DNA from: Podospora anserina
Taxonomy: Eukaryota
Direction of reading: 5' to 3'
DNA length: 64,000 bases
NCBI GenBank assembly: GCA_017654855.1
Contig: CM030334.1
Location: 186,001 to 250,000 of the forward strand
The notes below the pieces were generated by a model. That model was not told the origin of the DNA. It searched no databases and saw only the letters and a program-made list of their open reading frames with translations. The position numbers and the translations under genes were made by a program. Of this stretch, positions 6,539 through 51,909 are shown piece by piece (positions within the stretch are counted from its first letter, which is position 1; every line of letters begins with the position of its first letter).

Positions 6539-8798
6539 ATGGCTCTTCAAACCTTCTTCCTGCTGGCGGCAGCCATGCTGGCCAACGCAGAGACAACAGG
6601 CGAAAAGGTCTCTCGGCAAGCACCGTCTGGCGCTCAAGCATGGGCCGCCGCCCACTCCCAGGCTGCCGCCACTCTGGCCAGAATGTCACAGCAAGACAAG
6701 ATCAACATGGTCACGGGCATTGGCTGGGACAGAGGGCCTTGCGTGGGAAACACAGCTGCCATCAGCTCCATCAACTATCCTCAAATCTGTCTTCAGGATG
6801 GACCATTGGGCATTCGCTTCGGCACTGGTACCACCGCCTTCACACCTGGCGTCCAAGCTGCTTCGACATGGGACGTTGATCTGATCCGGCAGCGCGGTGC
6901 TTACCTGGGCGCCGAAGCCAAGGGCTGCGGCATTCACATCCTTTTGGGGCCCGTTGCCGGTGCCCTGGGCAAGATTCCCCACGGCGGTCGCAACTGGGAG
7001 GGATTTGGCGCCGACCCCTACCTTGCCGGTATTGCCATGAAGGAGACCATCGAGGGTATTCAGTCAGCAGGCGTCCAGGCCAACGCCAAGCACTACATTG
7101 CAAACGAACAAGAGCTCAACCGCGAGACCATGAGCAGCAATGTGGATGACCGCACTCAGCACGAGCTCTACCTCTGGCCCTTTGCCGACGCCGTGCACGC
7201 CAACGTCGCCAGCGTCATGTGCAGTTACAACAAGCTCAATGGCACGTGGGCTTGCGAGAATGACAAGGCTCTGAATCAGATCTTGAAGAAGGAGCTCGGA
7301 TTCCAGGGCTACGTTCTCAGCGACTGGAATGCTCAGCACAGCACTGCTCTGTCTGCTAACAGTGGTCTGGACATGACTATGCCCGGTACCGATTTCAACG
7401 GCCGCAATGTCTACTGGGGCCCTCAACTGAACAACGCTGTCAACGCCGGCCAGGTTCAGAGATCCAGACTAGACGACATGTGCAAGAGAATCTTGGCTGG
7501 CTGGTACTTGCTCGGTCAGAACCAGGGCTATCCCGCCATCAACATCAGGGCCAACGTTCAGGGCAACCATAAGGAGAACGTACGTGCTGTTGCCAGAGAC
7601 GGCATCGTCTTGCTGAAGAACGATGGAATTCTGCCGCTTTCCAAGCCGAGAAAGATTGCTGTCGTGGGCTCCCACTCCGTCAACAATCCCCAGGGAATCA
7701 ACGCCTGTGTTGACAAGGGCTGCAATGTTGGCACCCTTGGCATGGGCTGGGGTTCAGGCAGCGTCAACTACCCCTATCTCGTGTCCCCGTACGATGCTCT
7801 CCGGACTCGTGCTCAGGCCGATGGCACACAAATCAGCCTCCACAACACTGACAGCACCAACGGTGTGTCAAACGTTGTGTCTGACGCTGATGCTGTTGTT
7901 GTTGTCATCACTGCCGATTCTGGTGAAGGGTACATCACTGTCGAGGGCCACGCTGGCGACCGCAGCCACCTTGACCCGTGGCACAATGGCAACCAACTTG
8001 TTCAGGCTGCCGCGGCTGCCAACAAGAACGTCATCGTTGTTGTGCACAGTGTTGGCCAGATCACCCTGGAGACTATCCTCAACACCAATGGAGTCCGCGC
8101 GATTGTGTGGGCTGGTCTTCCGGGCCAAGAGAATGGCAACGCTCTTGTTGATGTTCTCTACGGCTTGGTTTCGCCATCTGGAAAGCTTCCCTACACCATT
8201 GGCAAGAGGGAGTCGGACTATGGCACAGCCGTTGTTCGTGGGGATGATAACTTCAGGGAGGGCCTTTTTGTTGACTACCGTCACTTTGACAATGCCAGGA
8301 TCGAGCCGCGCTATGAGTTTGGCTTTGGTCTTTGTAAGTTCCAGCGGCGGAGTTGGGTTTGATTTCAAGCTTTCCTAACCTGATAAAACAGCTTACACCA
8401 ATTTCACCTTCTCCGACATCAAGATTACTTCCAATGTCAAGCCGGGGCCCGCTACTGGCCAGACCATTCCCGGCGGACCTGCCGACCTGTGGGAGGACGT
8501 TGCGACAGTCACTGCAACCATCACCAACTCGGGTGCTGTCGAGGGCGCTGAGGTTGCCCAGCTTTACATCGGCCTGCCGTCCTCGGCTCCTGCCTCTCCC
8601 CCGAAGCAGCTGCGTGGATTTTCCAAGCTGAAGCTGGCCCCGGGTGCCAGCGGCACTGCCACATTCAACCTCAGACGCAGAGATCTCAGCTATTGGGATA
8701 CCCGCCTCCAGAACTGGGTCGTGCCCAGCGGCAACTTTGTCGTCAGCGTCGGCGCCAGCTCGAGAGATATCCGCTTGACGGGCACCATCACGGCGTAG
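6539..8798 (+). CDS. Secreted GH3 beta-glucosidase (intron 8334-8391)
   Basis: Signal peptide; GGRNWEGF, KHYIANEQE and nucleophile motif VLSDW; C-terminal FnIII-like exon after a GTAAGT...CAG intron. Confidence 0.95.
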
Positions 8799-11972: not shown

Positions 11973-12777
11973 ATGTCAGCTCAGGACTACTACAATTCGT
12001 ATCAGGGCGGTGGTGGTGGCGGCGGTCAGCAGCAACAGCAGCAGCAACAGGGCTACGGTTATAGCAACTCTGGCCAGCAGACATACGACGGTCAGCAGCA
12101 GGGTCAGGGGTATTATCCCCCTCCTCCTCCTCCTCCTCCTCCGCAGCAGCAGCAGCAGCAGTATTACCCCCCGCCTGGGCAGCCACACCCGCAAGGGCAG
12201 TATGGACAGCAGCAGTATGGCCAACACCAGGGACAGCATGGTCAACACCAGCAACCCCCGCCCTACCACCAAAACCAAGACCCGGTAGCCCACCAAGAGC
12301 AGCAGCAGCAAGGAGGTAAAGATCGCGCCGGGCTTGGAAGTGCTCTGCTCGGCGCGGCAGCCGGCGCTTTGCTTGGGCACTCGGCCGGAGGGGGAGGCAG
12401 CGGAGGCGGATCACTGGCTACGGCCGCGGCCGGGGTTCTTGGAGGGGCGTTTGCGGGGAATAAGCTGGAGGGGGTGATTGGGGATAAGTAAGTTCTTGTT
12501 TTGGTTTTGTTTTTTTAGCGACCTGGGGAGGAGTTGCTGACTCGACTGAAATAGACTTGACAAGCCGAAGAAGGAGGAGAAGAAGGACAAGGACAAGGAG
12601 GACAAGAAGGACAAGAAAGACAAGAAGGACAAGCACAAGGAGGGGAAGAAGGAGAAGGATAATGAGGGGAAGAAGGAGAAGAAGGAGAAGAAGGAGAAGA
12701 AGCACAAGAAGGAGAAGAAGAGTAAGAAGGGGAGTGGGTCTGATTCGGACTCGTCGGATAGCTCTGATTCTGACTGA
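11973..12777 (+). CDS. Low-complexity protein: Q/G/Y/P-rich N-terminus, glycine-zipper segment, K/E/D-rich tail (intron 12488-12554)
   Basis: ATG at 11973; the GTAAGT...TAG intron joins in frame to a KKEKK-rich exon ending SDSD*. Confidence 0.8.
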
Positions 12778-14150: not shown

Positions 14151-14616
14151 TGCTGCCCTTGTACATGGAAGCAAACAGGGCCATAGGACATCTGGCACTT
14201 CGTATGATCAAGAGTGAGCAAGCGAAGCGTTAGCGCAGGTGAAGAAGTTGCTGACTTGACTAGAGGTTGAGTACCGAACCTGTATCATAGTAATATTCAT
14301 AGAAACATCTCTCTCTGTACTACAATAAAATTCAGGTTCAGCTTCCGCCTTTAGTGCCTTGAGGACGAAGAGAAGAAAGGTCTTTGCCTTGAGGAACGCA
14401 AGGCTTCTAGAGGACGCGCGAAGAAGGGGGAGCCCAAAAAACCCTACAGACCCGCAAACATTTGACCTTTTTTTGGTCACATGCACACGCGATATGTGCG
14501 TTTCGAGGGGCTCCTTTTGTGTCGTGTGTGTGCCGTGTAAGTCAGTCACAACGCCTGTTTTTCTCTTTCTGCCGCTCAGACCGCCCTACCGCAGACTTTG
14601 AACACTGGAAAGTATT

Positions 14617-14812
14617 TCATATATGTCGCACAACTGCTCTCTTTTTCTTTTTGTGTCTCAATTTTTTGGTGTCTCCCCAGTCCCAGGTTTCTGCGTCCGC
14701 AACGGTCGCTTCACTCAGCTGGTCCAGCCTTTTCTCTGCAGCTGTCATATTCTCGGGCACGATATTGCCGACGAAATCTCTCTCTCGCACCCTGGAAAGA
14801 AGCATGATGCCT
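14617..14812 (-). pseudogene. C-terminal remnant of a PIF1-like (Helitron RepHel-type) helicase
   Basis: GIMLLSRVRERDFVGNIVPENMTAAEKRLDQLSEATVADAETWDW; a second copy at 22264-22420 extends to CRTLDGIMLL, resembling the sequence after SF1 motif VI. Confidence 0.6.
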
Positions 14813-14853
14813 TTCTTCTGCTAATCCCAGGTCCACAATCTATCTGCCTGCCG

Positions 14854-15723
14854 TTAATTATCCCAGAACCCTTTACCTCCGTACTCATTTCCAATAAGGA
14901 CCTTAGACTCGCCCTTCCCCACAACCGTCTCTACCGAGTTGGTTGTCTGGTCGCTGATACGGATCTCACCATGTAGGGCTGCCGCAGTGACAACATTGCC
15001 GAGCTGGACCCTTGCACGTTTCTCTGTTCTGATATCCTTGGCGGAATTCCTTCCCACAATCGCGTCGATCTTCTGCGCAGCCGCATCAGACATAGCTGCG
15101 TCGATTCCCCCCGCCGCATCCTTGAGTATTGTTAGGCTCGCCTCGTCCTCCACCTCTTCAATCTCGTTCTCCGCTAACTTGTGACATACGGCCTCAATAG
15201 GGAAGGCCTTCTCCAGCTCATCGACAAAGCCAGCGACCTGGTCGACTATTTTCTCGAGGCTTTTTCCGTCGTACAATGCCCATGCCGTCTTTTTCGCTAG
15301 GCTCGTCTGTTTCTGTCTCCGAGAAACGAGATCTTTTAGCCGACGATGCAGCGCTCGTCCGATCGGCTTCATATCCTTATCCTCGAACACCACCAGATCC
15401 TGCTGGTCCGCAACGAGCTCGTATCGCTTCGACGTCTTCTGGGCGGACTCGAAGAGAAGCAAGATTTCCTCGACGATCGATTTCGCTAATTGCACCGACT
15501 TATCGATTGGCGCGCTGGAGTGGAAACGTGGGTCGTCGTTGATCTGGACCGCCTCGCCCCATCGGCTCAATCGGACTTTCGCAATGTCCAGTCGGAGCTG
15601 GCATCTCTCGTAATCGCGCCCAAAATGGCGACCCAGCTGGACGTACTCAAAACAGGCAACGCAGTTATTGAAGAGGCCGGCAACGCCCAAGGCGCCAGCA
15701 ACGATCTCGAACGGTTCTGACAT
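14854..15723 (-). CDS. het-S: HET-S: HeLo domain plus prion-forming domain (218-289), 289 aa, het-S allele
   Basis: MSEPFEIVAGALGVAGLF...KIDAIVGRNSAKDIRTEKRARVQLGNVVT...NSVETVVGKGESKVLIGNEYGGKGFWDN; Ala23 and His33 mark HET-S rather than HET-s (Asp23, Pro33). Confidence 0.99.
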   Translation of the reverse strand: MSEPFEIVAGALGVAGLFNNCVACFEYVQLGRHFGRDYERCQLRLDIAKVRLSRWGEAVQINDDPRFHSSAPIDKSVQLAKSIVEEILLLFESAQKTSKRYELVADQQDLVVFEDKDMKPIGRALHRRLKDLVSRRQKQTSLAKKTAWALYDGKSLEKIVDQVAGFVDELEKAFPIEAVCHKLAENEIEEVEDEASLTILKDAAGGIDAAMSDAAAQKIDAIVGRNSAKDIRTEKRARVQLGNVVTAAALHGEIRISDQTTNSVETVVGKGESKVLIGNEYGGKGFWDN

Positions 15724-16114
15724 GGCAGTTTGACGGGAAAGCGAAGGTTGATGTTCCTGTGCGGCTGAACGTGCCCGCTTGCTGCTAAAGGCGGGGTACA
15801 CACCATCAGGCCGCCGTCCACATTGCCCAACCTCCTCGTTGCCCAACCCGAAAGTTGCGCAGTTGGCAATGAACACTTTATTGCGCTGCTACTAATCAGC
15901 TCCGGTCACTCAATATTGAGACATAAGAGCACTTTCATCTAGGCAATATCTATTACGAGTCTGCACAAGCGACTTCCTCTTGCTGCGAACGCCGACGCAA
16001 CCTTTGTTCTCGATCATAACGCACGAAGATGGTAGACAATCTTCGCGGCAATCGCAAGCTGGAGGCACCCTGAATCGATGCTTCAAGCAATCCAACCGCT
16101 TCGTCACTGCCACG
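15724..16114. promoter_or_regulatory. 391-bp divergent intergenic region, probable bidirectional promoter
   Basis: Head-to-head ATGs at 15723 (-) and 16115 (+); promoter activity itself is inferred. Confidence 0.6.
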
Positions 16115-18789
16115 ATGGCAAATCAGGTTCGGTCAATACATGCTGAAGGGCAAGCACGCGTGCATGTCGGCAATAGTTATTACGGCTCGAGCGACTTCCT
16201 CCCGACCGCAGACGATGCAGCCTTCGACTCCCACGCGGAAGAGCATAACGCCCGATGCCACCGCGACACCCGAACCGAGCTCCTCCGTCAGATCAGAGAG
16301 TGGGCAGACGATCCTCACGGCAAGACTATCTTTTGGCTGAACGGCATGGCAGGGACAGGGAAATCCACCATTTCTCGAACCGTGGCAAAGTCGTTCGCGG
16401 ACGACGGCATCCTCGGCGCGAGTTTCTTCTTCAAAAGGGGGGAAGGCGACCGTGGCAAAGCAACCTTGTTTTTCCCTACAATTGCCAGCCAGCTTGTGCG
16501 CAAAATCCCTGCCCTGGAGGCTTTTGTCAGAGAGGCTATCAATAACAACCCGGATGTTGCCAGGAAGGCACTGAGAGACCAATTCGAAAAGCTTATCCTG
16601 CAGCCTCTGGATCGCATTCACCACGCTATAGCTGTGATCGTCGTTGACGCTCTCGATGAGTGTGACGGTGACAACGACGTGAAGGTCATCATCTCCTTAC
16701 TATCACAAGCAAAGGAACTCCGCTCCCCAGGTTTGAGAATCTTCATTACCAGCCGACCTGAGCTGCCCATTCGCCTCGGCTTCAAGAACGTTACGGGAGA
16801 GTATCAGGACCTAGCACTGCATCAAATCCCGGAACCAATCGTCGAACACGATATATCTGCATTCTTGCGACACGAACTCGCGAGAATCAGGGACGACTAC
16901 AACCACCAAGCTCTCGAAGGCATAGAGCTGCTGCCAGATTGGCCCGGTGAACATGCTATTCAAACTCTCGCTCAGATGGCCGTCCCATTGTTTATTTTCG
17001 CTGCAACCGTATGCCGCTTCATTGAAGATCCGGCGTGGTCAGATCCCGCCGATCAGCTGGAGAAAGTCTTGCAGTATCAGATGAAGGCCTACGATTCCGA
17101 GCTCGGCAAGCTCGACGCGACATATTTCCCAGTTCTCAAGCAGATCATTATCGGACATACTAATCCGCAGAAGCTATTAGCTGCCTTCCGAGATGTGGTT
17201 GGCCCCATTGTCCTCCTCGTTCAGCCCCTCTCGGTGTTGTCGCTTGCAAAACTTCTCAACTTCTCCACTAAATCCATATATGGCAGGCTCAACTCTCTCC
17301 ACTCCGTCCTAAGCATTCCCTCGAGGATAGATTCTCCTGTCAGACTCTTTCATTTGTCCTTCCGTGACTTCCTCGTCGATCCAACCAAGCGTGCTGCTGA
17401 GTTTTGGATCGACGAGACAAAATATCACAAGACACTTGCGGACAGATGTATTCAACTGTTGCACCAACACCTCATGAGAGATATCTGCGGTCTACAAGTG
17501 CCGGGAAAGCTGCGGTCAGAGATCGATCAGCGAACTATTGACGCCGCTCTGCCGCCCGAGACCCAGTACGCCTGTCAGTACTGGGTCCACCATTTGAAGG
17601 AGGGTAGAAGCACCGTACAGGATGGCGGCCCAGTCCACAGCTTCCTGACGAGCCATCTACTTCACTGGCTTGAAGCGCTCAGCCTCTTGGGCCGTATCTC
17701 GGAGAGTATCAGCATAGTAGACGACTTATTAACCTTTCTACATGTATGTTACGCGCCTTTAGTAACCTCGACCACACTAACATTGCCACATAGCCCACAA
17801 GTGCTACTGAGGTATATGCATTCCTCTGTGATCTGAAACGGTTTATTTTAAACAGTCAATCGATTATCGACATAGCGCCTCTTCAGATATACGCTTCAGC
17901 ACTTGTGTTCAGCCCGGCCCGCAGTATAACAAGAGGCATATTTAAGCAAGAAGAACGGAAGTGGATTACTAGCGGGCCAATTGTACAAGATAGTTGGAAT
18001 GCGTGCCGGCAGACGCTAGAGGGGCATAGCGATTCGGTCTGGTCGGTCGTATTTTCGCCGGATTCGAAGTGGATTGCCTCAGGGTCAGGCGATTGTACCA
18101 TTAAAATCTGGGATCTCGAAACTGGATCATGCCAGCAGACGCTAGAGGGGCATAGCAGTTCGGTCGGGTCGGTCGTATTTTCGCCGGATTCGAAGTGGAT
18201 TGCCTCAGGGTCAGGCGATTGTACCATTAAAATCTGGGATCTCGAAACTGGATCATGCCAGCAGACGCTAGAGGGGCATAGCAGTTCGGTCGGGTCGGTC
18301 GTATTTTCGCCGGATTCGAAGTGGATTGCCTCAGGGTCAGGCGATTGTACCATTAAAATCTGGGATCTCGAAACTGGATCATGCCAGCAGACGCTAGAGG
18401 GGCATAGCGATTCGGTCAGGTCGGTCGTCTTTTCGCCGGATTCGAAGTGGATTGCCTCAGGGTCAGACGATCGTACCATTAAGATCTGGAATCTCGAAAC
18501 TGGATCATGCCAGCAGACGCTAGAGGGGCATAGCAGTTCGGTCAGGTCGGTTGCATCTTCCCTTAACTCAACATTAATTGCATTCCGATCAGATAACGCC
18601 AACGCCCCGCATTATGAACACTATGGAATAAGCTCAGATTATAGGTGGATTACAAGGGCCTCAAAAAACTGGCTATGGTTGCCTACGGAATACCGGCCGA
18701 ACTGTTCGGCCGTAGCGGCATCGAGGATAGCCATTGGCTGTATGTCCGGGCGTGTCCTAATTATAATATTCCCAGCGGATAATGAGTGA
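16115..18789 (+). CDS. nwd2: NWD2: NLR with N-terminal HET-s-like amyloid motif, NACHT domain and WD40 repeats; 874 aa (intron 17744-17793)
   Basis: MANQVRSIHAEGQARVHVGNSYYG; P-loop GMAGTGKST; Walker B IVVDALDEC; FITSRPE; FHLSFRDFL; the GTATGT...TAG intron joins to APLQIYASALVFSP and the WD repeats. Confidence 0.96.
18013..18555 (+). repeat. 126-bp (42-aa) WD40 tandem repeats: 4 complete plus 1 partial
   Basis: Units start at 18013, 18139, 18265, 18391 and 18517; units 2 and 3 are identical. Confidence 0.97.
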
Positions 18790-19050: not shown

Positions 19051-20139
19051 AGACTGTATATCTTTCGCTAGTATTTCGCTTGCCTCTCGAAAGGGAGAAG
19101 GCAAGCTTTAGTCTCTGTTCAATATACGATCTATCATTGTTTGATGACAGCGCTTCCTACCTAGCCTCTGATTGAGAAATCTTTAATCTTGTTGTAACAT
19201 AACATTCTAGAATCTTCCAAGCCTTATCTTCACCCCTGAATTGCTCTCCTTCGTCGTAAAGACTAATTGGCTCTGGAAGCTAACTGAGAGGCGTCATAAA
19301 GCGGCGACCAATCGGAACAAATCCGAGGTCTGGCTAACCTATCTTTGACATTAGCGCCGCAACCTCAGACGGGTTCACTGACAAAGCAGGGGTAGATGGA
19401 TGGATGGAATTTATTACACGTGTACGCCCGGAGACACTAAGCTTAAAGGGCCTATTGCACGCTAACTACATTCGGTTCATATACTTCCGCCGTTGTCTCG
19501 TCAAATCAAAGCAGGGCACTGTTACTACAATGTACAGGGCTGTTTGAATGGGTTACGGTTTTTTTGGGTAGGCATCTTCGTACACGGCATTTCAGAAGAC
19601 GGACACCGTTTAGGTGTCCCTACGGTGTGTGTACCGCGGTTCTTCTGGATGCAGGACAGAAAGCTTAGGGTGAGTTTGATAATTGAAAAGAAGTTCAAAT
19701 AGAGTTTGTTCCATTTCATGTTGTATTCCCAGGTTCTCACCTGATTCCCCCACTTTCAAACCCTTGTTGATCTGCATCGCGTGTGCCACCCGGGACCCTG
19801 GCCCGGCATCCTGAAACCTGCGGAATGTCAGCCAGTAAAAAGCAGCTGCAATCAGATTGACGAAGATTCACCACAAACAATCCAACATCTTCAAGGTATC
19901 CTGTCATATAGCCTCGTTCCTCAAGGCTCTTTAGGCAAACCGCAACCGGTTTGCGTCTCCTGTTTTTGGTCACATGCACACGCGATATGTGCGTTTCGAG
20001 GGCGTCCTTTCGTGTCGTGTGTGTGCCGTGTAACCCAGTCCCAACGCCTGTGCCTTGAGGAACGAAGAGACGAAAGGTTTTTTGGCGCCGCCCTCGGAAC
20101 AAAGACCCACAAACACTCGTCGGAATTCGTCATGTGTTC

Positions 20140-22013: not shown

Positions 22014-22420
22014 TAGAGGACGCGAAGGGAGGGGAAGCCCAAAAAACCCTACAGACCCACAAACACTTGACCCTTTTTTGGCCACATGCACACGCGATAT
22101 GTGCGTTTCGAGGGCGTCCTTTCGTGTCGTGTGTCGTGTGTATGATGTGTAATTCAGTCACAACGCCTGTTTTTCTGCCGCTCAGACCTCCCTACCGCAG
22201 ACTTTGGACGCTGGAAAGTGTTTCGTTTGTGTCGCACAACTGCTATCTTTTTCTTTTTGTATCTCACCAGTCCCAGGTGACTGCATCTGCAATAGTTGCT
22301 TCCCTCAGCTGCTCCAACCTTTTCTCCGCTGCTGTCATATTCTCTGGCACAGTATTGCCGACGAAATCCCTCTCTCGTATCCTGGGCAGGAGCATGATGC
22401 CGTCCAACGTCCGACACCAC
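22014..22420. mobile_element. Third, 5'-clipped copy of the Helitron-like 5' region with helicase remnant
   Basis: Collinear with 14408-14811 (TAGAGGACGCG...CACATGCACACGCGATATGTGCG...AGCATGATGCC). Confidence 0.8.
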
Positions 22421-24287: not shown

Positions 24288-27200
24288 CCCCCCCCACAGA
24301 CAGCACACCGCCGTCCAAAATGAAGCCATCGCTAATATCCTCCGAAGCCCAATATACGCCCAGATTCTTCCACTTCCTTTGACTCTTTTGCCCAATGCCC
24401 TAGTAGCCTTTTTCCCATATAAATACACGTTCTCCTATATATTTTAAACCGGAAAATCTCGCATTCCTAATAGTTATATAAACTTTACGTACTTCTCCCT
24501 TTATAGTACTTTTATAAATCTATCCGCCGGTATTTCTAACCTAGAAATATATTAAATACTAAATCTTCCTTCCTTCATTTATTTACTTACTTACTTATAC
24601 CGTATATCGATATACCGGGTCCTAATAATATTCTGAGGGTTTAGAATTATAATTTCGGCGTTCTTATTATCGGTATATAGTATATATAGCTTTAGCTATA
24701 GTATACTATAGTTTTTTAATATCTTTAATACTTACTATAGTAAATACTTTATAGGCGTTAGGTTAGTAAACTTTACTTCCGTCGTACTTAAAGTAACGAA
24801 AGTTTATTTTTTATTTTTTTATAATACTAACTTATTAATTATAAAAATAATATAGCTACTAATAGAATATCTTTAAAGTAAAATATTTATATATAAAATA
24901 TTTACGAATCTTATAAGTTTTATATTTTTTATCGAAAACTCGGAGCCTTTTAGTATAATATATAGCTTCCTAATAGTAATTAAGTACTAAAAAAATATTT
25001 TATTAATTTTAAGTAATATAGTAAGGGCTTAAAATTACTTCCGTAAAGGTAGTTAACGGTAAAAATAATATTGGACCGAGTACCGGTAAATAGTTAATTT
25101 AATATACCGGTCTTCCGAATATATTCCTTTATTTTTACGGTTATTTTCTTTTATATAAAAGGGAGTTTTAATTTAGTTAATTACGGTATAACTACGCCGG
25201 CTATATTTTTATAGCCGAACTTTTCGAGTAAAGTATTAATATAGGCTACCTAAGATAAATAAATTTACTTCTTCCTGCGGTTCCTTATAATATTAAAACT
25301 TAAAAATCTTTTTAATTCGTTTAGTTTTTTAATACTATATTTACTTTCTAGCCCGATAATAATATCTTTAATAATTTTTATTATAGGTACTAATATAAAT
25401 AGATTATTTACGTATAAGACTACTAAGGTACTTATTTTTTTATAACGAAATAAATAAAGGTTTAATAAAAAAATATCGAAGTTTAGTTTAATTATTATAG
25501 GTTTCACTATTTCGTATTAGTAAATAAGTAATTTCTTTAAGCCGTATAATACCCTTTTAAGCTAGTATACTTTATTTAATAATTTATTTAAATTATTTAA
25601 TAATCGTACGTAATATTATATAGTATTAGGGATTTTAATATTAAAAAATATTATTTTAAAATCGTATTAAAGGTACTTTTAATTATTTATAACTATAATA
25701 ATCTAAAAGTATTTAACTACTATACTATTTATAATAGTAACGTAAACGTTTTATATAATTTAGAAATCCCTATTAAAGTTATTATATACTATTTATTTTA
25801 CTTTAACCTTTACTTTATTAATTTAAGGGTCTATCTTTTTATTATATATTTATTTATTTAGTAAAACGTTATAACTTTTCGGTATATTTATTAATTTATA
25901 AACGTTTTTTTTTAATAAATTAATATTTTACTCCTTTATAATAAATAATTAATATTTATAATAATTTTCGAGTTTCTTTATTTATTAATAATTCTTAAAT
26001 ATATAAAATTTATTAATAGTTTATAAAAAGTAATTAATTTTAATTATAAATAAAGCGTAAATTATTATTTTACGTAATTATAGATTATTAAAATATATTA
26101 TAAAAAAACTTTAATAAAGGTATTTACTTTACTATAGTTTTTTATAGAAACCTAATCCCTAATTTTTTATTATTATTTTATAAAGCCGCTCTTAAGTTAA
26201 CGGAAAAACTACCGCTTCTTTTATATAGCCTATATTAAACTCGAAATCGTTATTAAAATCTTTAATTAAGTTTTTCGTATTTAAATTTAATAATTTATTA
26301 TCGGCTTAATTATTATTAGGCCCCCCTATAACCTTACCCTCCTCTCCCCCTATTAACCTTATAAGGGAAGTAAATTCTTTTATAGTAAGAAAATTAATAA
26401 TATAAAACGTTTAATTATAGTTTAATAAAATAAATACTTCGGACTATATATCTTTTATTTTTTTAATATCGAAAAAGTTTTTTATATTTAAAGCTTTAAA
26501 TAATAAAAATAATATTAATAACGGTATAACTTTCGGAATAAATAAAATAGTTTATTTAGGGTTTTTAACCTTTTTTATTTTAATTATTAAAATACTTTAT
26601 TATAAATCGGGTTCCAGTATAATAATAAGTTTATTATCGAAAGTAATTTTTTTTCTTAAAAATATTATTTTATTAATAATAATATTTTTTTCTTCGGCTA
26701 TAATATTATTAATAAAAACTATTTTATACTTAATATCTTTATATTTATCGTCGTTAAATCTATAAAAATCGTTTTTATTAAACTTTATAACGTTAATTTT
26801 TATAACTTTATTAATAATTAAGTTCTAAACTTAGTATATTTTACTATATATATTTACGTAACTAATAAATTTTTTTTTTTCCACTCTAGTAATAAACTTA
26901 TCCGAATTAGCCCGGTAAACCGGCTTAATATAGTAATACGCGTTATAAAAGTATAAACGTAAATACCGAATATATAATTTCCGCTCGCCTTTAAGTATAT
27001 TAAGCTTTATAGTATACTTTTTATAAATACTAATATCTCCCTTATTAACCTTCGAAGGTAGTAAATTATTTACATAAACTATAAACTATATAATAAATAG
27101 AAATAATTTCTTTAATACTTTATAGGCTAATATAATAACCCTAGTACGGTTAAGCGTAATCCTCGCGGCCCTCTCTACCTTTCTATTTATTTATAGTAAA

Positions 27201-29842
27201 TAAAATACGGTTTTAAGGATAGTAATACCCTCCTAGTCGGCCCAGGCGGCTATACGGCTATCGTTAAAGGTTTTAAAGCCCTAAATAAATTCTATACCGC
27301 TATTAAAGCTAATAATACTAATTTTATACTCGGTTTAACGCACGATTTTCGTTTCGAAATTTTTAATTTTATCGAATACTTACTTTTTCTTTATTATAAA
27401 GTTAATCTATTTATAATTATTTTATATATCTATATATTAAATAAAATATTTATAACCTAAATATTTAGGGTTTTTATAAGTAATAACGTTAATATAAATA
27501 AAATCGAACGGATTATTAATTTACGAAAGGGTCGATAAGTTTAATTAATTTATTATTTTTATTATTATATAAAACTCGTAAAAAAAGTTATTACCGACGA
27601 GCTTAATATCCGCTTACGTATAAACCTTATAAATATTATTTTTATTAATATATATTAAATAATAATATATTACCTAGTAATTAATAAATACTATTACGGC
27701 TTTAATAAAAGTTTTTATTAAAAATATTTTATTAAAATCGGCGCCGGATATTATATTTATTTAATATATATTATTATTTTTAATTAATTTATATATTATT
27801 TATTTAATACTTTTAAAAACTAAATTATAACTCTTTTAATCCTAAAAAATATTTTTATCGAATAACTTATTTATTAATATTAAATTAACGAGCGTTTATA
27901 AATAATATACCGCTTCTTTAAACTTTAAAGTAATAACCTAATTATTTAAAAGGGTAGATTATAGCGTTACGGTACTTTAATAATTATACTTTATAATATT
28001 TCTTAATAACGAAAGGAACCTTTTTTCTTTCTTTTTAAATAATAAATAAAGTTCGGTAAACTACTTTAATTTATTAAATATAAAATCTATATATCCGGAG
28101 TCGTAATATATATAGTTTTTAAATATTTCGACGGCCTATTAGACTTTAAAGGTATTTATTAACGAGAGTATTACCTTTAAAGGCCGAAACAAAAATCCAA
28201 TTAATTATCGTTATAGTAAGTAAAAAGTAATATATTAATAAAGTTATTAAATAGTATTAAAGTACTGTAGGTAAGTTAGTCCTTCGAAAACTTAATATTA
28301 ATAACGTTATTAATATAACTTTAAAGAATCCTTATTAACGAACTAATATTTTATTATTTTTTTTACTTATTCGTTTATATTTTTTTTTTATATTCCTAAT
28401 CCTTTAAAGCCTTATTAAAATTATATTATTAATAAGTTTTACTTTTCGGATAATAACGATTATAATTTATATAATATTAATTACTTTTCTTTAAGCCTTT
28501 AATATATTAATCGTATTTTTTTATTAAGGTTAATAATATAGTAAATAAAAGTATAGTTACGGCCAAGGCTTTAATAGTCTCGATAATAATTTTAAAATAA
28601 ATTAATATAGTTTCCTCTATAACGGCCTTAGCGTTATACTCCTAATAAAAAAGTAATTAAATTATAGTACCGTCTTTTATCTTCCTTATTAACCGGTCGT
28701 ATAAATCGAGGTATACGGTTTTAATACTATTTAGGGTAACCTAAAAATAAACTACGTAACCGATCTTAATTTCTATTATATTAAAACGATAGCGAAGGAC
28801 CTCGAACCGGTTAAAGTAAATTTAAAATAAAGCGAAGTTAATACGTTTAAAAGTAAAATACTCCTTTAAAAATATATTAGCGATATCGAAAGTACCGCGC
28901 TATAAAGTTTAAATAATTTTTTAGTATAGATTATAGGTATTAATACTATTAATTTTTTAATTTAAATTAAAAATTTATTATTAAATCTCGGGCTTTTTAA
29001 CGGAAATTATTATTAAATTTTAAATATTTAAGTTATTAATATATTATTAATTAAAAGTAAATATCCCTTTTTCCGTTAATAACTATATATTAATCTTAAT
29101 ATAGTTTTTTAAATTATAGTATATAAGGGACTAAGTTAATTAAAATTTTTAGCTAGAAAAATCGGTCTTTAAATTTAAAGCCGGTAAAGTTTAAAAGGTT
29201 CGTTATTTAACCGTAATAACGGTATTAATATTCCCTATAATTTTTATAAACTCTAAAAACTAAACTATAATAACGTTAATACTAATTATTTTAAAAAAAA
29301 AACTAATTAAAAAAAAGTTATAAAAAAGATATTATAAAAAAGACGTTAAAAGAAAAACTTAAAGAAAGGCGTTATTTAACTTTATAACCGCTAATAGTAA
29401 ATTAAATTAATTTAGGTAAAAGGCGAGATACTTACTCCGCTATCGGTTTTCTGATAAGGCAGGATAGAGTTCTCGATTACTACCGGAAAATAATAATTTT
29501 TTAGCTAAAAGGTCGTAAAAATAGTAGAACTAAGGAAACTTAGTTAGAAGAAGGTTAGCGCCGTAAACTACATTTTTATCGGTAAGGGGTAGTCGGTCGC
29601 TTTAACTTTTCGTTAAAATAAGGGTTAGGGTTAAAACCAGGCTTCTATTGATTAGGAAGTTAGTTAACTCTCTTAACGCCTCCAAAATCGCCGTCGAAAG
29701 GTCCAATTGCGTGATATTGGCCTAATAAGGGTCGAAAAGTTATAAGGTCCAGTATGGTATTCGGCCTTGCGAGGTCGGGTTATCAACGAGGGCATCGACT
29801 TCGGTTTACTTAGTGATTTAAGCGTCAAAAGAGCTCATAACC

Positions 29843-35411: not shown

Positions 35412-37019
35412 ATGGATCTCGACACTCCCATGGGTATGGCCCCAATGCTGGGCACAGCGCGCACTGGCGCAACCATCTTGTGCTGCAACTGTGGCTCTCC
35501 CATTGATGGCACCTCTTCCGCCGGTGCCATGTGCTACGACTGGTAAGTTTTCCTTTGAATTGCTAGTCATGGCGCCTGGACTGATAAAATTGTCTCCAGT
35601 ATCAAATTGACAGTCGACATCTCGAAAACCATCCCCCGCGAAGCCCATATCCAGTTCTGCCGTGACTGCGACCGATGGCTGATGCCCCCCAACACCTGGG
35701 TCAATGCTGCGCCCGAGTCCAAAGAGTTGCTGGCTTTGTGTTTGAAGAGGTTACGAAATATCACCAAGGTCCGCATTGTCAACGCAGAGTTCATCTGGAC
35801 GGAACCACATTCGCGAAGAATCAAGGTCAAGATCACAATCCAGGACTCAGTGGCTGATGGTGTCCTCATGCAACAAAGTTTCGAGGTGGTCTACGTCGTG
35901 GGTACACAGCAGTGCAAGGACTGCGCCAAGTCATACACAGCCAACGTTTGGAGAGCGTCAGTACAAGTCCGCCAAAAGGTGCCCCACAAGAGGACCTTTT
36001 TGCTTTTGGAGCAGCTTATCCTCAAGCACCAAGCGCATCGGGACACGATCAACATCAAGGAAGAAAAGGGCGGTATCGACTTTTACTTTGCTCACAGAAA
36101 TCAGGCCGAAGCCTTCCTTTCTTTCCTCAAATCAGTCATTCCCATTTTTGTCAAGGACTCGAGGCAACTTATTTCGCAAGACAACCACACAGGCGACAAG
36201 TCATACAAGTTCAACTACTCCGTCGAGATTGTCCCCATTTGCAGAGATGATTTGGTGGCCCTGCCACTCAAGTTGGCCCGGTCGATTGGCAACATTACGC
36301 CCCTTGTCCTCTGCCACAGGATAGGAACGTCCGTCAACCTTCTCGACCCCAACACTCTTCAGACAGCCGAAATCAGCTCCGACGTCTTCTGGCGCGCACC
36401 ATTCCAGCCTCTTGCCGGTACACCCGACTTGGTCGAGTTCATTGTCATGGACGTCGAACCAACAAACGTCCGCAAGGGCAAGTGGGTTCTGTCAGAAGTG
36501 CAAGTTGCCCGCGCCGCCGATCTCGGTGTAAACGACCACACCTATTTCACCAGAACTCATCTGGGCAACCTGTTGCATGCTGGAGACTCGGTCCTTGGTT
36601 ATATGCTCTCGGGAACAAACTTCAACTCTTCCGCTCTGGACGCCATTGAGAACTCTCGTGCGTTCGGGTCGACGATTCCAGATGTCATTCTGGTCAAGAA
36701 GCACTACCCCAACAGGCGCAAGAACAGGAAGCGCAACTGGAAGCTCAAGCGCATGGCCAAGGATGAGGGCGAGTTGCTGCCCAAGGCGGCCGATCAGGAG
36801 AAGATGGAGGCCGAGTACGAGATGTTCTTGCGGGATGTGGAGGAGGATGAGGAGTTGCGGGCCGCGTTGGCGTTGTACAAGAACACCAAGAAGAAGCAGC
36901 AGGATGCGGACGCGATGAGCATTGCCGAGACGGAGATGACGGGTGTGGATGATGGGCCGAGGATCAATATGGATGAGCTGCTGGATGATTTTGATGAGTT
37001 GGGCATTCATGATGAGTAG
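35412..37019 (+). CDS. NMD3: 60S ribosomal export adaptor Nmd3 (intron 35543-35599)
   Basis: CxxC zinc motifs, WTEPHSRRIKVK, VQVRQKVPHKRTF, C-terminal NES-like ELLDDFDEL. Confidence 0.96.
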
Positions 37020-38763: not shown

Positions 38764-38997
38764 CTTGTCGCAACGTTATTCGAAATGACAGCACCTGGAA
38801 ACCATAAGAACGAGCATTTGACATACGAGAAGGCCAGAATTATAGATGTCCTAAGAGCAAGCATCGGCACATTTTGCTATGCAGCACCACAAAGCCCTGT
38901 TGTTCCAATCACTATACGAATTGAGGTGTTGGGTGCTAGTAAAGGGTATACGCACATGCAAAAGAGATGCCGAACAATAAAAAGGGGGCTTCAACGA

Positions 38998-40054
38998 TCA
39001 AAAGATCTTGCTGAGCACTCTTTGCACATGCTCTGGCTGGTCCTCCTGCTTCGTCTTCTTTGCCAGCGGTACCTGTGCAAACGTCCTCCTCTTCTTTTGA
39101 GAAACCCCTTCTTGGACCGCACTGCCGCCTCCATATTCCTTCTTCTCGTCTTCTGTGGCCTTTTTCCGCTTGGCCGCAGCCTTTGCTTCCATGCCCTGCA
39201 ACACCTTTGCCCTCTCCACGTTCCGCACAAACTCCTTGTTCTCCTTGGTGGACTTGCTGATTTCGGCGCGCATTCTGCTGGCTCGTTCGGCGTTCTCGGC
39301 GGCGATTTGCTCTGTGAGATGGTGCCTGTTGGCTGTCAGTATGGAGTTCCCAGATAATCAGAGAGAGAGAGAGAGGGAGGGGGGTGGGGTCCCACCATTT
39401 GAAACCATTCAAATACTTCATGGCCCACACATCATCTCTGTACCAACTCGACTTCTTCCCACCAATTGTTTGCGCATTCAAGAGATCGACCACCTTTTTA
39501 GCATCCTTCTTCTTGATAAACTCGACCCATCCCTCGCCGTAGGACCGCTTCTTGTTACCTCCGGCGTGGACGCGGCGCGCGTGGACTGCTGGATCCTCGG
39601 GGGCGAGGAATATCCTGTTGATTTGGCCGTATGGTTCGAGAAGTGATCGTAACTTCTGGGGCTTCATGAATGGCGGTACGCGCGATAGGTAGATAACACC
39701 TGACTTTTTGATGGCAGCTTCGGAGACAACAAGGTTCTTCTTGAGCAGTGAATTCTTGACGCCGGGCAGTTCGACCTTTGTCTTCTTCGGTTTCTTTTCT
39801 TTGGAGTCTTTCCCTTCCTCTGCCTCGTCGCCGGACTCTTGGGGTTCTCCGTCGAGCTTTGCGCCACCATCCTCGTCTTGGTCTTGGTATCGCTCGTCGT
39901 CGGTAATGTCTTCAGCCTCGCTATCCTCGTCGTTTACTCTTCTGCGCTTCGCGCTGGGGCCACCCTTTTGGAAATCATCTTCTGAGCCATAATCGCGGCC
40001 GACATCTTCGTCACTATCGCCGGCGTCGAGAAAAGCGTTTCTTTTATCAGACAT
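38998..40054 (-). CDS. ESF2: Pre-rRNA processing protein Esf2 (intron 39326-39395)
   Basis: GVIYLSRVPPFMKP, EGWVEF and IGGKKSSWYRDDVW; the splice gives FKWHHLTEQI. Confidence 0.95.
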
Positions 40055-51300: not shown

Positions 51301-51909
51301 GCCCACACGTTCAAGCTCCTCGTTGACACCCACGCCACTTTGGATCCTGTAGACATGGAAGCTGCCGAGTCTGTCCTCGAGATGATCAAGGCTACTGGTC
51401 AGAAGCCCGAAGCCGTCCACTACGCCAGTCTCATCCACGCCCGCGGCTGTGTCCTTCACGATCTCGAGGGTGCTCGCCGCGTATTTGACGCAGTCGTCAA
51501 GGAGTCTTCGGTTCCTCTCGTTCCCTGTCTATTCCAGGCTCTTTTCGAGGCCATGGTTGCGAACCATCGGGTTGTCGAGACCGAGCCTGTGCTCGCCATG
51601 ATGCGGTCGAATCGTGTGGAGATGACTCCCTATATCGCCAACACCCTCATCCATGGCTGGGCAGCCGAGAAGAACATTGCCAAGGCCAAGGAGATTTACG
51701 CCACTGTCAGCGCCACCAAGCGGGAACCTAGCACTTACGAGGCCATGACTCGCGCGTTCCTTGCCGTTGAGGAGCGCGAGAGCGCCAAGGGGGTGGTTAC
51801 TGAGATGCTCGGCCGCGGATACCCAAGCGCCGTCGTCAACAAGGTTCTGGAACTCCTCGGTGGCGGCGGAAACGCTGCCCCAGTCGAGGCTGCCGCCGCC
51901 GCTGCGTAA
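48334..51909 (+). CDS. cya5: Pentatricopeptide-repeat mitochondrial translation regulator, Cya5-like, 1191 aa
   Basis: Several PPR motifs (YNALIGKLGKARR, YGTIVNALCR) and a presequence-like N-terminus; orthology is by recall. Confidence 0.8.
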   Translation: MPAFSSTVWQSFIRQGFTKSITQGYAQSVVAATHPHVLNSQNRPSFGRRNHARIGRRLSTLGLQSAFHTSSSTVAAGPVEPQRLGKAVSTNGGLDAYFEQLQKTQQVAEEGAVEEVESDKEWTQFQFQQRIEWKPTPASILLGSDASKTLALDVDPAQVTKRDASPAITPEAEAALAHIDARLAEEIEVRKQLDALEEEVESLRATSPALAEKLEEEIRSRTITPVSHIRTPASLVRTPPVDPQSQSYADHLVKLADGGRYVEIPAVFEAMLVAGIKPIAAAYNVLLTAAFQLAPDKSEVVNKALDIYTDMLRRKVALDSETYNILVSLLASRSLEVSALQEALEVKRVRFGGMDEPGKFMFASHELELAILGEEERLDLAIKLFESSVSSNKAGYTSETYHQMISACAKAGRVSNMLEMFEYMECNQAVPFAATFPAMITAFAKSGDLISAVECYNEYRNLAIANDNGEPTLLKRADAQVYASVINAYVISDKLPGAVKFYKKILQEYGVTAAEIKDALLAGGFVKGFIKRGVYSEALQWAQSIESEIRGRAMNEIATVAADNGDKLTAVAAFANASPSSEMVSSAMALLAMSIRAGDLGAAARYWDILCGSGFKFTVSFVEPAAMYAVAMIGSGQVMEGLTQSEWMFQRIRETVPAAQLEGEIEEATEFISRFMAVRGIVDPREASPVSYAPSQSFAPSPFPSTPAVAHHEESFDPYAQNTDFKGSSLISDELEGAHGRKGPKLSDALNRFRNIRRAGRHPRYITYAKLISAASREGKIDLCHEILAMARTDVPLLPQYPVVRYGWSSILDAMVGACLTVGDRAMAEQFHQELLAMGATPSANTFGLYITTLKESTKTFDEATEAVRVFHRAKAEGVEPTSFLYNALIGKLGKARRIDDCLFYFGEMQTLGIKPTSVTYGTIVNALCRVSDEKFAEQLFDEMEAMPNYKARPAPYNSMMQFFLMTKRDKSKVLEYFERMKAKGIAPTAHTFKLLVDTHATLDPVDMEAAESVLEMIKATGQKPEAVHYASLIHARGCVLHDLEGARRVFDAVVKESSVPLVPCLFQALFEAMVANHRVVETEPVLAMMRSNRVEMTPYIANTLIHGWAAEKNIAKAKEIYATVSATKREPSTYEAMTRAFLAVEERESAKGVVTEMLGRGYPSAVVNKVLELLGGGGNAAPVEAAAAAA

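What the first reader, a model, noticed from the sequence alone, without database searches (positions are those of the whole stretch)
14854..18789. Two-gene amyloid signalling module: an NLR with one amyloid repeat facing a HeLo pore-former with two
Seen: NWD2 residues 3-23 (16121-16183) NQVRSIHAEGQARVHVGNSYY align without gaps to both HET-S prion-domain repeats, R1 NSAKDIRTEKRARVQLGNVVT (14986-15048) and R2 NSVETVVGKGESKVLIGNEYG (14878-14940). They share the initial N, alternating hydrophobics, (A/S)(R/K)V and GN at positions 17-18. The NLR has no other N-terminal effector domain, and the genes are head-to-head 391 bp apart. Established: the HET-s beta-solenoid fold converts HET-S into a membrane-disrupting toxin, and NACHT proteins oligomerise on ligand binding. 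Interpretation: receptor oligomerisation stacks the single motifs into a template that folds the HET-S prion domain and triggers cell death. I recall this NWD2/HET-S system as already described in P. anserina, so it is the key system in the window but not new to the literature.
Basis: partly seen in the sequence, partly recalled or inferred. Interest (0 to 1): 0.92.

Follow-up and report, generated by a model that had tools for sequence, protein, structure and literature searches.

The report
Known het-S / nwd2 amyloid signalling locus
This is the well-studied Podospora gene pair in which an immune-type receptor carries one copy of a short amyloid motif that can switch on the neighbouring pore-forming cell-death protein carrying two copies; it is real and intact here, but already described and tested in the literature.

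Summary
14854-15723(-) encodes a 289-aa HeLo + HET-s-prion-domain protein. Residues 1-227 are 100% identical to the solved P. anserina HET-S domain, with A23 and H33, so this is the toxic het-S allele. 391 nt away and divergent lies nwd2: exon 1 16115-17743, a 50-nt intron 17744-17793, exon 2 17794-18789, 874 aa. The intron is spliced out in contigs of 4 of 4 runs laid. NWD2 is a 21-aa motif (res 3-23), a NACHT domain and five WD40 repeats, with no other N-terminal domain. The motif aligns without gaps to R1 (8/21) and R2 (7/21). None of 100,000 shuffles reaches its score, and it is the top non-self 21-mer of 64,597 in the window. Seven of 120 NACHT homologues carry the motif directly after Met. 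One laid run carries the other haplotype (P33, nwd2 interrupted and frameshifted), matching the published het-s/het-S dimorphism. Only allele-level details are specific to this window: the five-repeat WD array, a 348-nt flank repeat and 5' uORFs. Novelty: already known. Interest is low.

The parts
14854..15723 (-). het-S coding sequence, 289 aa plus stop, no intron
   Evidence: ORF. Pfam HeLo PF14479 at residues 7-199, E 1.7e-56, and HET-s_218-289 PF11558 at residues 218-282, 86 bits against a cutoff of 32.2. Residues 1-227 are 100% identical to PDB 2wvo.
15127..15705 (-). HeLo pore-forming domain (residues 7-199). Codon 33 (15625-15627) is His and codon 23 is Ala, the HET-S specificity residues
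   Evidence: Codon 33 read from the sequence. The role of residues 23 and 33 is from PMC3531502.
14857..15072 (-). Prion-forming domain, residues 218-289
   Evidence: Matches PDB 2kj3/2rnm/2lbu (HET-s 218-289), E 6.5e-41, with 3 differences at residues 235, 253 and 274.
14986..15048 (-). Amyloid pseudo-repeat R1 (residues 226-246)
   Evidence: In 102 homologues, position 1 is N in 94, position 17 is G in 102 and position 18 is N in 74.
14878..14940 (-). Amyloid pseudo-repeat R2 (residues 262-282)
   Evidence: In 102 homologues, position 1 is N in 97, position 17 is G in 100 and position 18 is N in 75.
15724..16114 (.). 391-nt region between the two divergent start codons, presumed to hold a shared or bidirectional promoter and the 5' leaders
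   Evidence: Contigs of RNA-type runs cover it (table 8), but contigs show neither strand nor transcript ends. The promoter function is inferred.
16115..17743 (+). nwd2 exon 1 (543 codons)
   Evidence: Pfam NPHP3_N 107.6 bits and NACHT 33.8 bits, above its cutoff of 26.7. The ATG has A at -3 and G at +4, with no upstream in-frame ATG.
16121..16183 (+). r0: a single HET-s-type amyloid motif, NWD2 residues 3-23
   Evidence: statistics. Pfam PF17108 at residues 2-23, 23.7 bits against a cutoff of 24.3, and PF11558 at residues 3-22 aligned to the R2 part of the profile, E 8e-4. The 11 residues named in PMC4344463 (V5, R6, I8, H9, A10, G12, R15, V16, V18, G19, N20) are all present.
16289..16783 (+). 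NACHT/NPHP3_N NTPase core (residues 59-223). Includes the P-loop GMAGTGKS at residues 77-84 (16343-16366) and a VVDALDE Walker B stretch
   Evidence: and the translation.
17744..17793 (+). 50-nt intron with a GTATGT 5' site, an ACTAAC branch site and a 3' AG
   Evidence: Sequence. The joint 17743->17794 (GT..AG, skips 50) is present in contigs of 4 of 4 runs laid, from 4 studies (table 5).
17794..18789 (+). nwd2 exon 2 (331 codons plus a TGA stop)
   Evidence: WD40 PF00400 E 6.1e-65, 5 stretches.
18004..18551 (+). Array of 126-nt (42-aa) near-identical WD40 repeats: 4 full units (units 2 and 3 identical) plus the start of a fifth, degenerate unit
   Evidence: TRF finds period 126, 4.3 copies, 96% matches. 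The repeat finder family D1. Repeats read from the translation differ at four main positions.

Best explanation
The window carries the het-S haplotype of the Podospora anserina (or a very close sibling species) het-s locus. It holds the HET-S pore-forming cell-death executioner and, 391 nt away on the other strand, an intact nwd2 gene for its cognate NOD-like receptor.

Mechanism. The WD40 array of NWD2 binds a still unknown ligand (inferred). The NACHT domain then oligomerises (inferred from the STAND/APAF-1 paradigm). This brings several copies of the single 21-residue r0 motif (residues 3-23) together, so that they fold cooperatively into a HET-s-type beta-solenoid. Published work shows this for the peptide, for the 1-30 GFP fusion and for ligand-switchable chimeras.

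The resulting amyloid surface templates R1 and R2 of the HET-S prion domain into the same fold (shown). The HeLo domain then partly unfolds, its N-terminal ~34 residues insert into the membrane, and the cell dies (shown in vitro and in vivo for [Het-s]-seeded HET-S). In short, it is a two-gene receptor/executioner module in which the signal is passed on by amyloid templating.
For: Domain anatomy matches: HeLo plus prion domain, and r0-NACHT-WD40. HET-S residues 1-227 are identical to PDB 2wvo. They differ from HET-s (2wvn) at 11 positions, including H33 vs P and A23 vs D. The prion domain has 3 differences from 2kj3.

The r0 similarity is far beyond chance: 0 of 100,000 shuffles reach it, and it scores about 7.5 sd above the window's 21-mers. 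r0 is kept directly after the start Met in 7 of the 120 listed NACHT homologues, all among the 13 best hits. Each has 5-8 of 21 identities to its partner's R1 and R2.

nwd2 is intact and transcribed. The exact 50-nt intron is spliced out in contigs of 4 of 4 runs.

The alternative haplotype appears in run X20. It has T>G at 15626 (H33P) and listed differences in 13 of the 14 codons that separate HET-S from HET-s. Foreign sequence is inserted at 16244-16248, and there are 2-nt and 1-nt deletions in nwd2. This matches the published statement that nwd2 is a repa/yeti-disrupted pseudogene only in het-s haplotypes (PMC3321046; PMC4344463; PMC13449251).

Experiments I read as passages in PMC4344463:
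- NWD2 chimeras induce [Het-s] only with the cognate ligand.
- NWD2(1-30)-GFP induces the prion, is incompatible with HET-S and relocates it to the cell periphery.
- NWD2(3-23) fibrils seed HET-s(218-289) and infected 68 of 68 transfected strains.
- H9P, R15P and G19A abolish activity.
- Solid-state NMR indicates a HET-s-like fold.

Membrane damage by seeded HET-S, and protection of residues ~1-35 in liposomes, are from PMC3531502.
Against: The natural ligand is unknown. The frequent nwd2-8 allele showed no prion-inducing activity in the three het-c backgrounds tested (PMC4344463). Activation of HET-S by native full-length NWD2 has therefore not been shown.

The allele here has only five recognisable WD40 repeats. 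Whether such a short array folds into a working sensor is unknown. My single-sequence AlphaFold model was confident only for the four canonical repeats (mean pLDDT 59.2). The repeat number could also be under-assembled.

By Pfam's own thresholds the r0 match is just below cutoff: PF17108 23.7 vs 24.3 bits, and PF11558 19.7 vs 32.2.

Four gene pairs showed no pair-specific co-variation of r0 with R1/R2.

The Fig. 1 legend of PMC4344463 gives 0.6 kb between the ORFs, whereas I measure 391 nt. I cannot explain this.
Confidence: 0.95

Rival explanations
1. The module is present, but this particular nwd2 allele is a weak or dead receptor because its WD array has only five repeats. In this strain HET-S would then act only in allorecognition, triggered by the [Het-s] prion of a fusion partner, and not downstream of NWD2.
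For: There are five WD40 stretches. AlphaFold is confident only for residues ~80-250 of exon 2. HET-S/[Het-s] incompatibility does not need nwd2 (PMC4344463 passage). From memory, with no call behind it: in the paralogues het-e and het-d, short repeat arrays are inactive in incompatibility.
Against: Natural het-S strains carry nwd2 alleles of 4 to 12 repeats, and the commonest have six and seven (PMC4344463). The reading frame is fully open and the gene is transcribed and spliced. By contrast, the het-s-linked copy has decayed (X20).
Confidence: 0.12
2. The N-terminal resemblance is an evolutionary relic or coincidence with no signalling role, and NWD2 acts through another effector.
For: Only the sub-threshold Pfam scores for the 21-residue motif.
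Against: The permutation and window-wide controls. Conservation of the motif at the extreme N-terminus of orthologues that are 67-96% identical. No other N-terminal domain is present. Published gain- and loss-of-function experiments.
Confidence: 0.01
3. Translation of nwd2 starts downstream (Met78), so the motif is not part of the protein.
For: Two short upstream ORFs (16029-16073 and 16078-16146, the second overlapping the ATG) could reduce initiation at 16115, if they lie in the mRNA. Five database models of homologues begin at the P-loop Met: P0021, P0028, P0039, P0045 and P0050.
Against: Met78 lies inside the P-loop, 19 residues into the Pfam NACHT-region match. A start there would truncate the NTPase. 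The 16115 ATG has a good context and begins an ORF whose first 23 codons are conserved in orthologues. RNA-type contigs cover the region upstream of 16115.
Confidence: 0.02

Closest known systems
NWD2 / HET-S amyloid signalling pair of Podospora anserina, het-S haplotype (Daskalov et al. 2012 PMC3321046; 2015 PMC4344463)
   Same: Same genes, same divergent arrangement and same motif positions (3-23, 226-246, 262-282). All 11 NWD2 residues named in the 2015 paper are present. The HET-S HeLo domain is identical to PDB 2wvo, and nwd2 is intact.
   Different: Only allele-level detail. This allele has five WD40 repeats, within the published range of 4-12, and I could not see Fig. 9 or S1 Table to name it. 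The ORFs are 391 nt apart, against 0.6 kb in the paper's legend.
het-s haplotype: [Het-s] prion protein plus nwd2 pseudogene
   Same: Same locus. The prion domain differs at only 3 of 72 residues.
   Different: HET-s has P33 and D23 and is not a pore former, and its nwd2 is interrupted by a repa/yeti LTR. In run X20 I see exactly this: H33P, an insertion at codon 44 and two frameshifts. That haplotype also lacks 14441-14788. The window is the other allele.
Other fungal NLR/effector amyloid motifs (sigma motif sesA/sesB/HET-eN; PP motif) and metazoan RHIM
   Same: The logic is the same: a short motif at the NLR N-terminus is repeated at the C-terminus of an adjacent effector (PMC3321046 passages). 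RHIM is reported as distantly related to the HET-s motif (PMC4262963, abstract in the listing only).
   Different: Different motif families and effectors. Here the motif matches the HET-s family profile and not those.
All-in-one HeLo-NACHT-WD NLRs and other NWD paralogues (HET-E/HET-D)
   Same: The NACHT and highly conserved WD40 repeats are homologous. Many of the 120 hits carry HET, Goodbye-like or RelA_SpoT N-terminal domains.
   Different: In those proteins the death domain is fused to the receptor. Here it is on a separate gene and coupled through the amyloid motif.

Membership tests
HET-S/HET-s protein (HeLo + HET-s prion-forming domain) | N-terminal HeLo domain | tested here: met
   PF14479 191.7 bits against a cutoff of 23.2, residues 7-199. 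100% identity to PDB 2wvo over residues 1-227.
HET-S/HET-s protein (HeLo + HET-s prion-forming domain) | C-terminal prion-forming domain with two 21-residue pseudo-repeats | tested here: met
   PF11558 86 bits against a cutoff of 32.2. R1 is 226-246 and R2 is 262-282. 69 of 72 residues are identical to PDB 2kj3.
HET-S/HET-s protein (HeLo + HET-s prion-forming domain) | HET-S (toxic) rather than HET-s specificity: His33 and Ala23 | tested here: met
   The alignments show H33 and A23 here, as in 2wvo, against P33 and D23 in 2wvn. The role of these residues is from PMC3531502.
HET-S/HET-s protein (HeLo + HET-s prion-forming domain) | Membrane insertion and permeabilisation after templating | not testable with these tools
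   Shown for a protein whose residues 1-227 are identical (PMC3531502).
NWD2-type NLR (r0 motif - NACHT - WD40) | NACHT NTPase with a P-loop | tested here: met
   PF05729 33.8 bits against 26.7, and PF24883 107.6 bits. GMAGTGKS at residues 77-84.
NWD2-type NLR (r0 motif - NACHT - WD40) | C-terminal array of highly conserved 42-aa WD40 repeats | tested here: met
   PF00400 E 6.1e-65 with 5 stretches. TRF period 126, 4.3 copies, 96% matches.
NWD2-type NLR (r0 motif - NACHT - WD40) | A single HET-s-type 21-residue motif at the extreme N-terminus and no other effector domain | tested here: met
   Permutation and window-wide controls. All 11 residues named in PMC4344463 match. No other Pfam domain lies before residue 48. 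Caveat: the Pfam profile scores are just under threshold, PF17108 at 23.7 vs 24.3 bits and PF11558 at 19.7 vs 32.2.
NWD2-type NLR (r0 motif - NACHT - WD40) | Immediately adjacent to, and divergently transcribed from, het-S | tested here: met
   Searches show a 391-nt gap and opposite strands. Stated in PMC3321046 and PMC4344463.
NWD2-type NLR (r0 motif - NACHT - WD40) | Open, uninterrupted reading frame (functional allele, as in het-S strains) | tested here: met
   543 + 331 codons with no stop once the 50-nt intron is removed. The intron is confirmed in 4 of 4 runs.
NWD2-type NLR (r0 motif - NACHT - WD40) | Ligand-induced oligomerisation | not testable with these tools
   The ligand is unknown (PMC4344463; PMC13449251). 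Oligomerisation is inferred from the STAND paradigm (PMC3321046).
Amyloid-templating signal transduction | r0 forms a HET-s-like amyloid that seeds the effector's prion domain | not testable with these tools
   Published for a peptide spanning the same residue range. I could verify 11 of its 21 residues against the paper's text (PMC4344463).

The most novel reading that the evidence does not exclude
The haplotype-specific features seen here may matter for regulation or specificity. They are a five-repeat nwd2 allele with two identical central repeats, a 348-nt dispersed-repeat segment 66 nt past the het-S stop that the het-s haplotype lacks, and two short uORFs in front of nwd2, one overlapping its start. 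For example, the uORFs might keep NWD2 translation low to avoid autoactivation, or the short WD array might define a distinct ligand specificity. None of this is described in the passages I read.
Probability: 0.1. Interest if true: 0.3.

Novelty: already known. Interest (0 to 1): 0.1.

Why it matters
The system is the founding example of amyloid (prion-fold) signalling between a NOD-like receptor and a pore-forming executioner. It has parallels in mammalian RHIM and ASC signalling and in bacterial NLR-associated motifs. For this scan, the value of the finding is as a positive control. A reader working from raw sequence recovered the correct genes, motif boundaries and mechanism. The tools independently recovered both known haplotypes, het-S with intact nwd2 and het-s with broken nwd2. 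It opens no new question. The long-standing open question, the natural ligand of NWD2, is not made more testable by this window.

Tried and rejected
1. The genome search 'own' returned that no genome is held. I therefore could not look for further HET-s-type motifs elsewhere in the genome.

3. Deleu 1990 (repa, PMC331976) is not held. I could not compare the window's repeats with repa.

4. A 21-nt terminus of the element inserted in nwd2 of run X20, copied, has 0 matches in the window at up to 3 mismatches. The dispersed repeat at 14408-14811, 22014-22401 and 19959-20051 therefore does not contain that terminus of the element. Pfam on its ORFs gave nothing below E 0.02.

5. The second-best 21-mer, at +22411 with score 41, lies in that repeat. 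It has no start codon or NLR context, and I treat it as chance.

6. AlphaFold2 on exon 2 without an alignment gave mean pLDDT 59.2. The flanks (1-76 and 256-331) are below 50, so the number of propeller blades cannot be read from it.

7. In a co-variation mini-test on 4 gene pairs, r0 was no closer to its own partner's repeats than to the others'.

8. No RNA holder is listed for the stretch. The runs I laid are only guessed to be RNA, although their contigs lack the intron.

9. All runs are Logan contigs. Transcript ends, strand and expression level could not be read, and neither could collapse of the WD repeats. I left the WD array out of the laid stretch.

10. I did not run complex prediction. 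This is a textbook pair with solved HET-s fibril structures, so a pass would not have changed my odds.

11. One search had a term-syntax error and timed out. Both were corrected and repeated.

12. Supplements are closed. S1 Table and Fig. 9 of PMC4344463, which would name this nwd2 allele, were not seen.
Full report
**Observation**

The minus-strand ORF 14854-15723 encodes 289 residues. Pfam assigns HeLo to residues 7-199 (PF14479, E 1.7e-56) and the HET-s prion domain to residues 218-282 (PF11558, 86 bits against a cutoff of 32.2).

The plus-strand ORF starting at 16115 runs 573 codons to a stop at 17836. However, the sequence holds a textbook fungal intron at 17744-17793, with a GTATGT 5' site, an ACTAAC branch site and a 3' AG. 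Removing it joins 543 codons in frame to a further 331 codons ending at the TGA at 18787-18789.

They are NWD2 residues 3-23 and HET-S residues 226-246 and 262-282. The gap between the divergent start codons is 15724-16114, or 391 nt.

**Is the similarity more than chance?**

- Ungapped identities are 8/21 (r0-R1), 7/21 (r0-R2) and 5/21 (R1-R2). The receptor motif is therefore closer to each repeat than the two repeats are to each other.
- None of 100,000 shuffles of the NWD2 21-mer reaches the observed BLOSUM62 score against R1, against R2 or against both.
- I scored all 64,597 stop-free 21-mers of the six frames against R1+R2. The mean is -37.8 and the sd 15.8. The NWD2 motif scores 80, third after R1 and R2 themselves. 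The next best, 41 at +22411, lies in a dispersed repeat with no gene context.
- Pfam independently aligns NWD2 residues 3-22 to the R2 half of the HET-s_218-289 profile (E 8e-4). It aligns residues 2-23 to PF17108, the small family built on this N-terminal motif, at 23.7 bits, just under its 24.3-bit cutoff. By Pfam's own thresholds this is sub-threshold, and I say so. The permutation result and the conservation below carry the weight.

**Anatomy of the receptor**

After the motif there is no recognisable domain until the NACHT region, which gives these matches:
- NPHP3_N at residues 59-214, 107.6 bits.
- NACHT at residues 73-223, 33.8 bits against a cutoff of 26.7.
- P-loop GMAGTGKS at residues 77-84, and a VVDALDE Walker B stretch.

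Exon 2 carries five WD40 matches (PF00400, E 6.1e-65). They lie in a 126-nt tandem array of 4.3 copies with 96% matches. Units 2 and 3 are identical, and the units differ mainly at four positions. This fits the four hypervariable codons described for nwd genes (PMC4344463, section 15).

A single-sequence AlphaFold2 model was confident only over the four canonical repeats, with a mean pLDDT of 59.2. It does not tell whether the domain closes into a propeller.

**Which allele, which organism**

HET-S residues 1-227 are 100% identical to PDB 2wvo. They differ at 11 positions from 2wvn: residues 6, 13, 23, 33, 50, 60, 70, 73, 130, 165 and 186. Both chains are deposited as 'small s protein'. The match to 2wvo appears in the protein database as a Podospora anserina chain (P0130, 100% identity).

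The prion domain differs from the HET-s(218-289) structures 2kj3, 2rnm and 2lbu at residues 235, 253 and 274.

The window has His33 and Ala23. According to PMC3531502 (passages), a change at 33 converts HET-S to HET-s behaviour, and changes at 23 and 33 together convert HET-s to HET-S behaviour. In 102 full-length homologues, position 33 is His in 67 and Pro in 1. (Eighteen of the 120 hits were dropped because their length fell outside 270-330 residues.)

The 2026 study of the species complex reports trans-species polymorphism at this site (PMC13449251). I therefore say P. anserina or a very close sibling, het-S haplotype.

**Relatives and conservation**

The best NACHT-region homologue is 96% identical and has an identical r0 (P0001). 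Named hits include 'NWD2 protein' from Rhypophila decipiens (78%) and from Staphylotrichum tortipilum (71%).

Seven of the 120 listed homologues carry an r0-type 21-mer directly after the initiator Met: P0001, P0002, P0004, P0008, P0009, P0012 and P0013. An eighth, P0035, has a partial one. The others have HET, Goodbye-like or other N-termini, or truncated gene models.

Three r0-bearing receptors share contig length with a HET-S homologue, and two of the three pairs also share a named organism. The pairs are P0002/P0122, P0009/P0124 and P0013/P0152. I infer from this that each pair lies on one contig. In each pair r0 shows 5-8 of 21 identities to the partner's R1 and R2.

In the HET-S homologues, the key positions are conserved as follows:

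| Motif position | R1 (of 102) | R2 (of 102) |
|---|---|---|
| N1 | 94 | 97 |
| G17 | 102 | 100 |
| N18 | 74 | 75 |

A four-pair test showed no pair-specific co-variation.

**Public reads**

Twenty of the 24 listed runs hold the stretch. They come from 8 studies, and 7 rows are flagged as possible sources. None is on record as RNA.

I laid four runs guessed to be RNA, from four studies, on 14300-17990. All four have a contig that joins 17743 to 17794 and skips exactly the predicted GT..AG intron (table 5). These contigs therefore derive from spliced nwd2 transcripts. Three runs (X15, X17, X19) match the window with 0-1 differences.

The fourth run, X20, is the other haplotype:
- T>G at 15626 changes codon 33 from His to Pro (read).
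- The listed differences fall in 13 of the 14 codons that separate the window's protein from the HET-s PDB chains. Codon 70 is not among the 40 rows shown, and 24 rows were not shown.
- In nwd2, one X20 contig stops matching at 16248 and the other starts matching at 16244. Each continues into unrelated sequence, and the 5-nt overlap looks like a target-site duplication flanking an insertion at codon 44.
- There are also 2-nt and 1-nt deletions at 16921 and 17340.

This matches the published picture. In het-s strains nwd2 carries a repa (yeti LTR) insertion of about 0.5 kb and premature stops, while het-S strains keep a functional gene (PMC3321046; PMC4344463; PMC13449251).

**Mechanism and what is shown**

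The model was proposed in PMC3321046 (abstract and section 6). Ligand binding to the WD repeats drives NACHT oligomerisation. [quoted passage not shown]

PMC4344463 (passages) reports the following:
- NWD2 chimeras with HET-D or HET-E WD domains induce [Het-s] only with the cognate HET-C ligand.
- Point mutants of r0, including H9P, R15P and G19A, abolish activity.
- NWD2(1-30)-GFP forms foci, induces [Het-s], is incompatible with HET-S and drives it to the cell periphery.
- A synthetic NWD2(3-23) peptide forms fibrils that seed HET-s(218-289) and infected 68 of 68 transfected strains.
- Solid-state NMR shifts of six residues match those of the HET-s repeats.

PMC3531502 shows that seeded HET-S perforates liposomes and that residues ~1-35 become membrane-protected.

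Three things remain inferred. The natural ligand is unknown: the frequent nwd2-8 allele did not respond in the three het-c backgrounds tested, and the stimulus is still called unknown in 2026. Oligomerisation of native NWD2 has not been shown. Whether this five-repeat allele is an active sensor is also unknown. Published alleles range from 4 to 12 repeats, and the commonest have six and seven.

**Start codon**

The 16115 ATG has A at -3 and G at +4, and there is no upstream in-frame ATG. The next in-frame Met is residue 78, inside the P-loop. Orthologues conserve the 23 codons after the ATG. RNA-type contigs extend upstream of it.

Two short uORFs (16029-16073 and 16078-16146) would lie in the leader if transcription starts far enough upstream. 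I could not determine this.

**Comparison and verdict**

This is a member of the known NWD2/HET-S system, and indeed the type case. Every testable defining feature is met. The only sequence-level caveat is the sub-threshold Pfam score for a 21-residue motif.

Two things differ from the papers. The spacing is 391 nt against the '0.6 kb' of a figure legend, which I cannot explain. The allele also has its particular WD array. Supplements and figures that would name the allele were not available.

Novelty: already known. Interest is low, although the finding is a clean positive control for the scan.

Noticed in passing
window 14408-14811, 22014-22401, 19959-20051: A dispersed repeat starts 43 nt beyond the het-S stop codon. 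The copy at 22014-22401 is 82% identical over 411 nt, and a partial copy at 19959-20051 is 92% identical. The two larger copies bracket the het-S/nwd2 pair as direct repeats. The het-s-haplotype contig of run X20 lacks 14441-14788 (348 nt, with non-splice ends AC..GC), so this is a haplotype-specific indel. There is no Pfam hit, and it does not contain the terminus of the element inserted in X20's nwd2.
   Followed up: partly
window 16029-16073 and 16078-16146 (+): Two short upstream ORFs lie ahead of nwd2, of 14 and 22 codons. The second is out of frame and overlaps the nwd2 ATG at 16115. Whether they lie in the mRNA leader is unknown, because contigs cover the region but show neither strand nor start.
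   Followed up: no
window 15724-16114: The ORF-to-ORF distance is 391 nt, whereas the Fig. 1 legend of PMC4344463 states 0.6 kb. The X20 haplotype differs here by only two 1-nt insertions, so haplotype does not explain the discrepancy.
   Followed up: partly
window ~24500-29500: A block of very low G+C (19-22% in 1-kb windows, against ~50-60% elsewhere) with no ORF of 150 aa or more between 21 and 33 kb. It looks like RIP-degraded repeat DNA.
   Followed up: no
window 6539-8362(+), 35682-37019(+), 38936-40054(-), 48334-51909(+): The neighbouring ORFs are ordinary housekeeping-type genes: a glycoside hydrolase family 3 protein, the NMD3 ribosome export adaptor, an RRM protein and a large PPR-repeat protein. 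Introns were not modelled.
   Followed up: partly
window 12550-12738: A 9-nt periodic purine-rich tract (AAG/GAG/GAC repeats) inside an ORF region. It would encode a lysine/glutamate/aspartate-rich low-complexity segment (family D2).
   Followed up: no
proteins P0021, P0028, P0039, P0045, P0050: Several database gene models of NWD2-like proteins begin exactly at the P-loop Met (MAGTGKST...). This suggests truncated annotations that would hide N-terminal amyloid motifs or effector domains.
   Followed up: no
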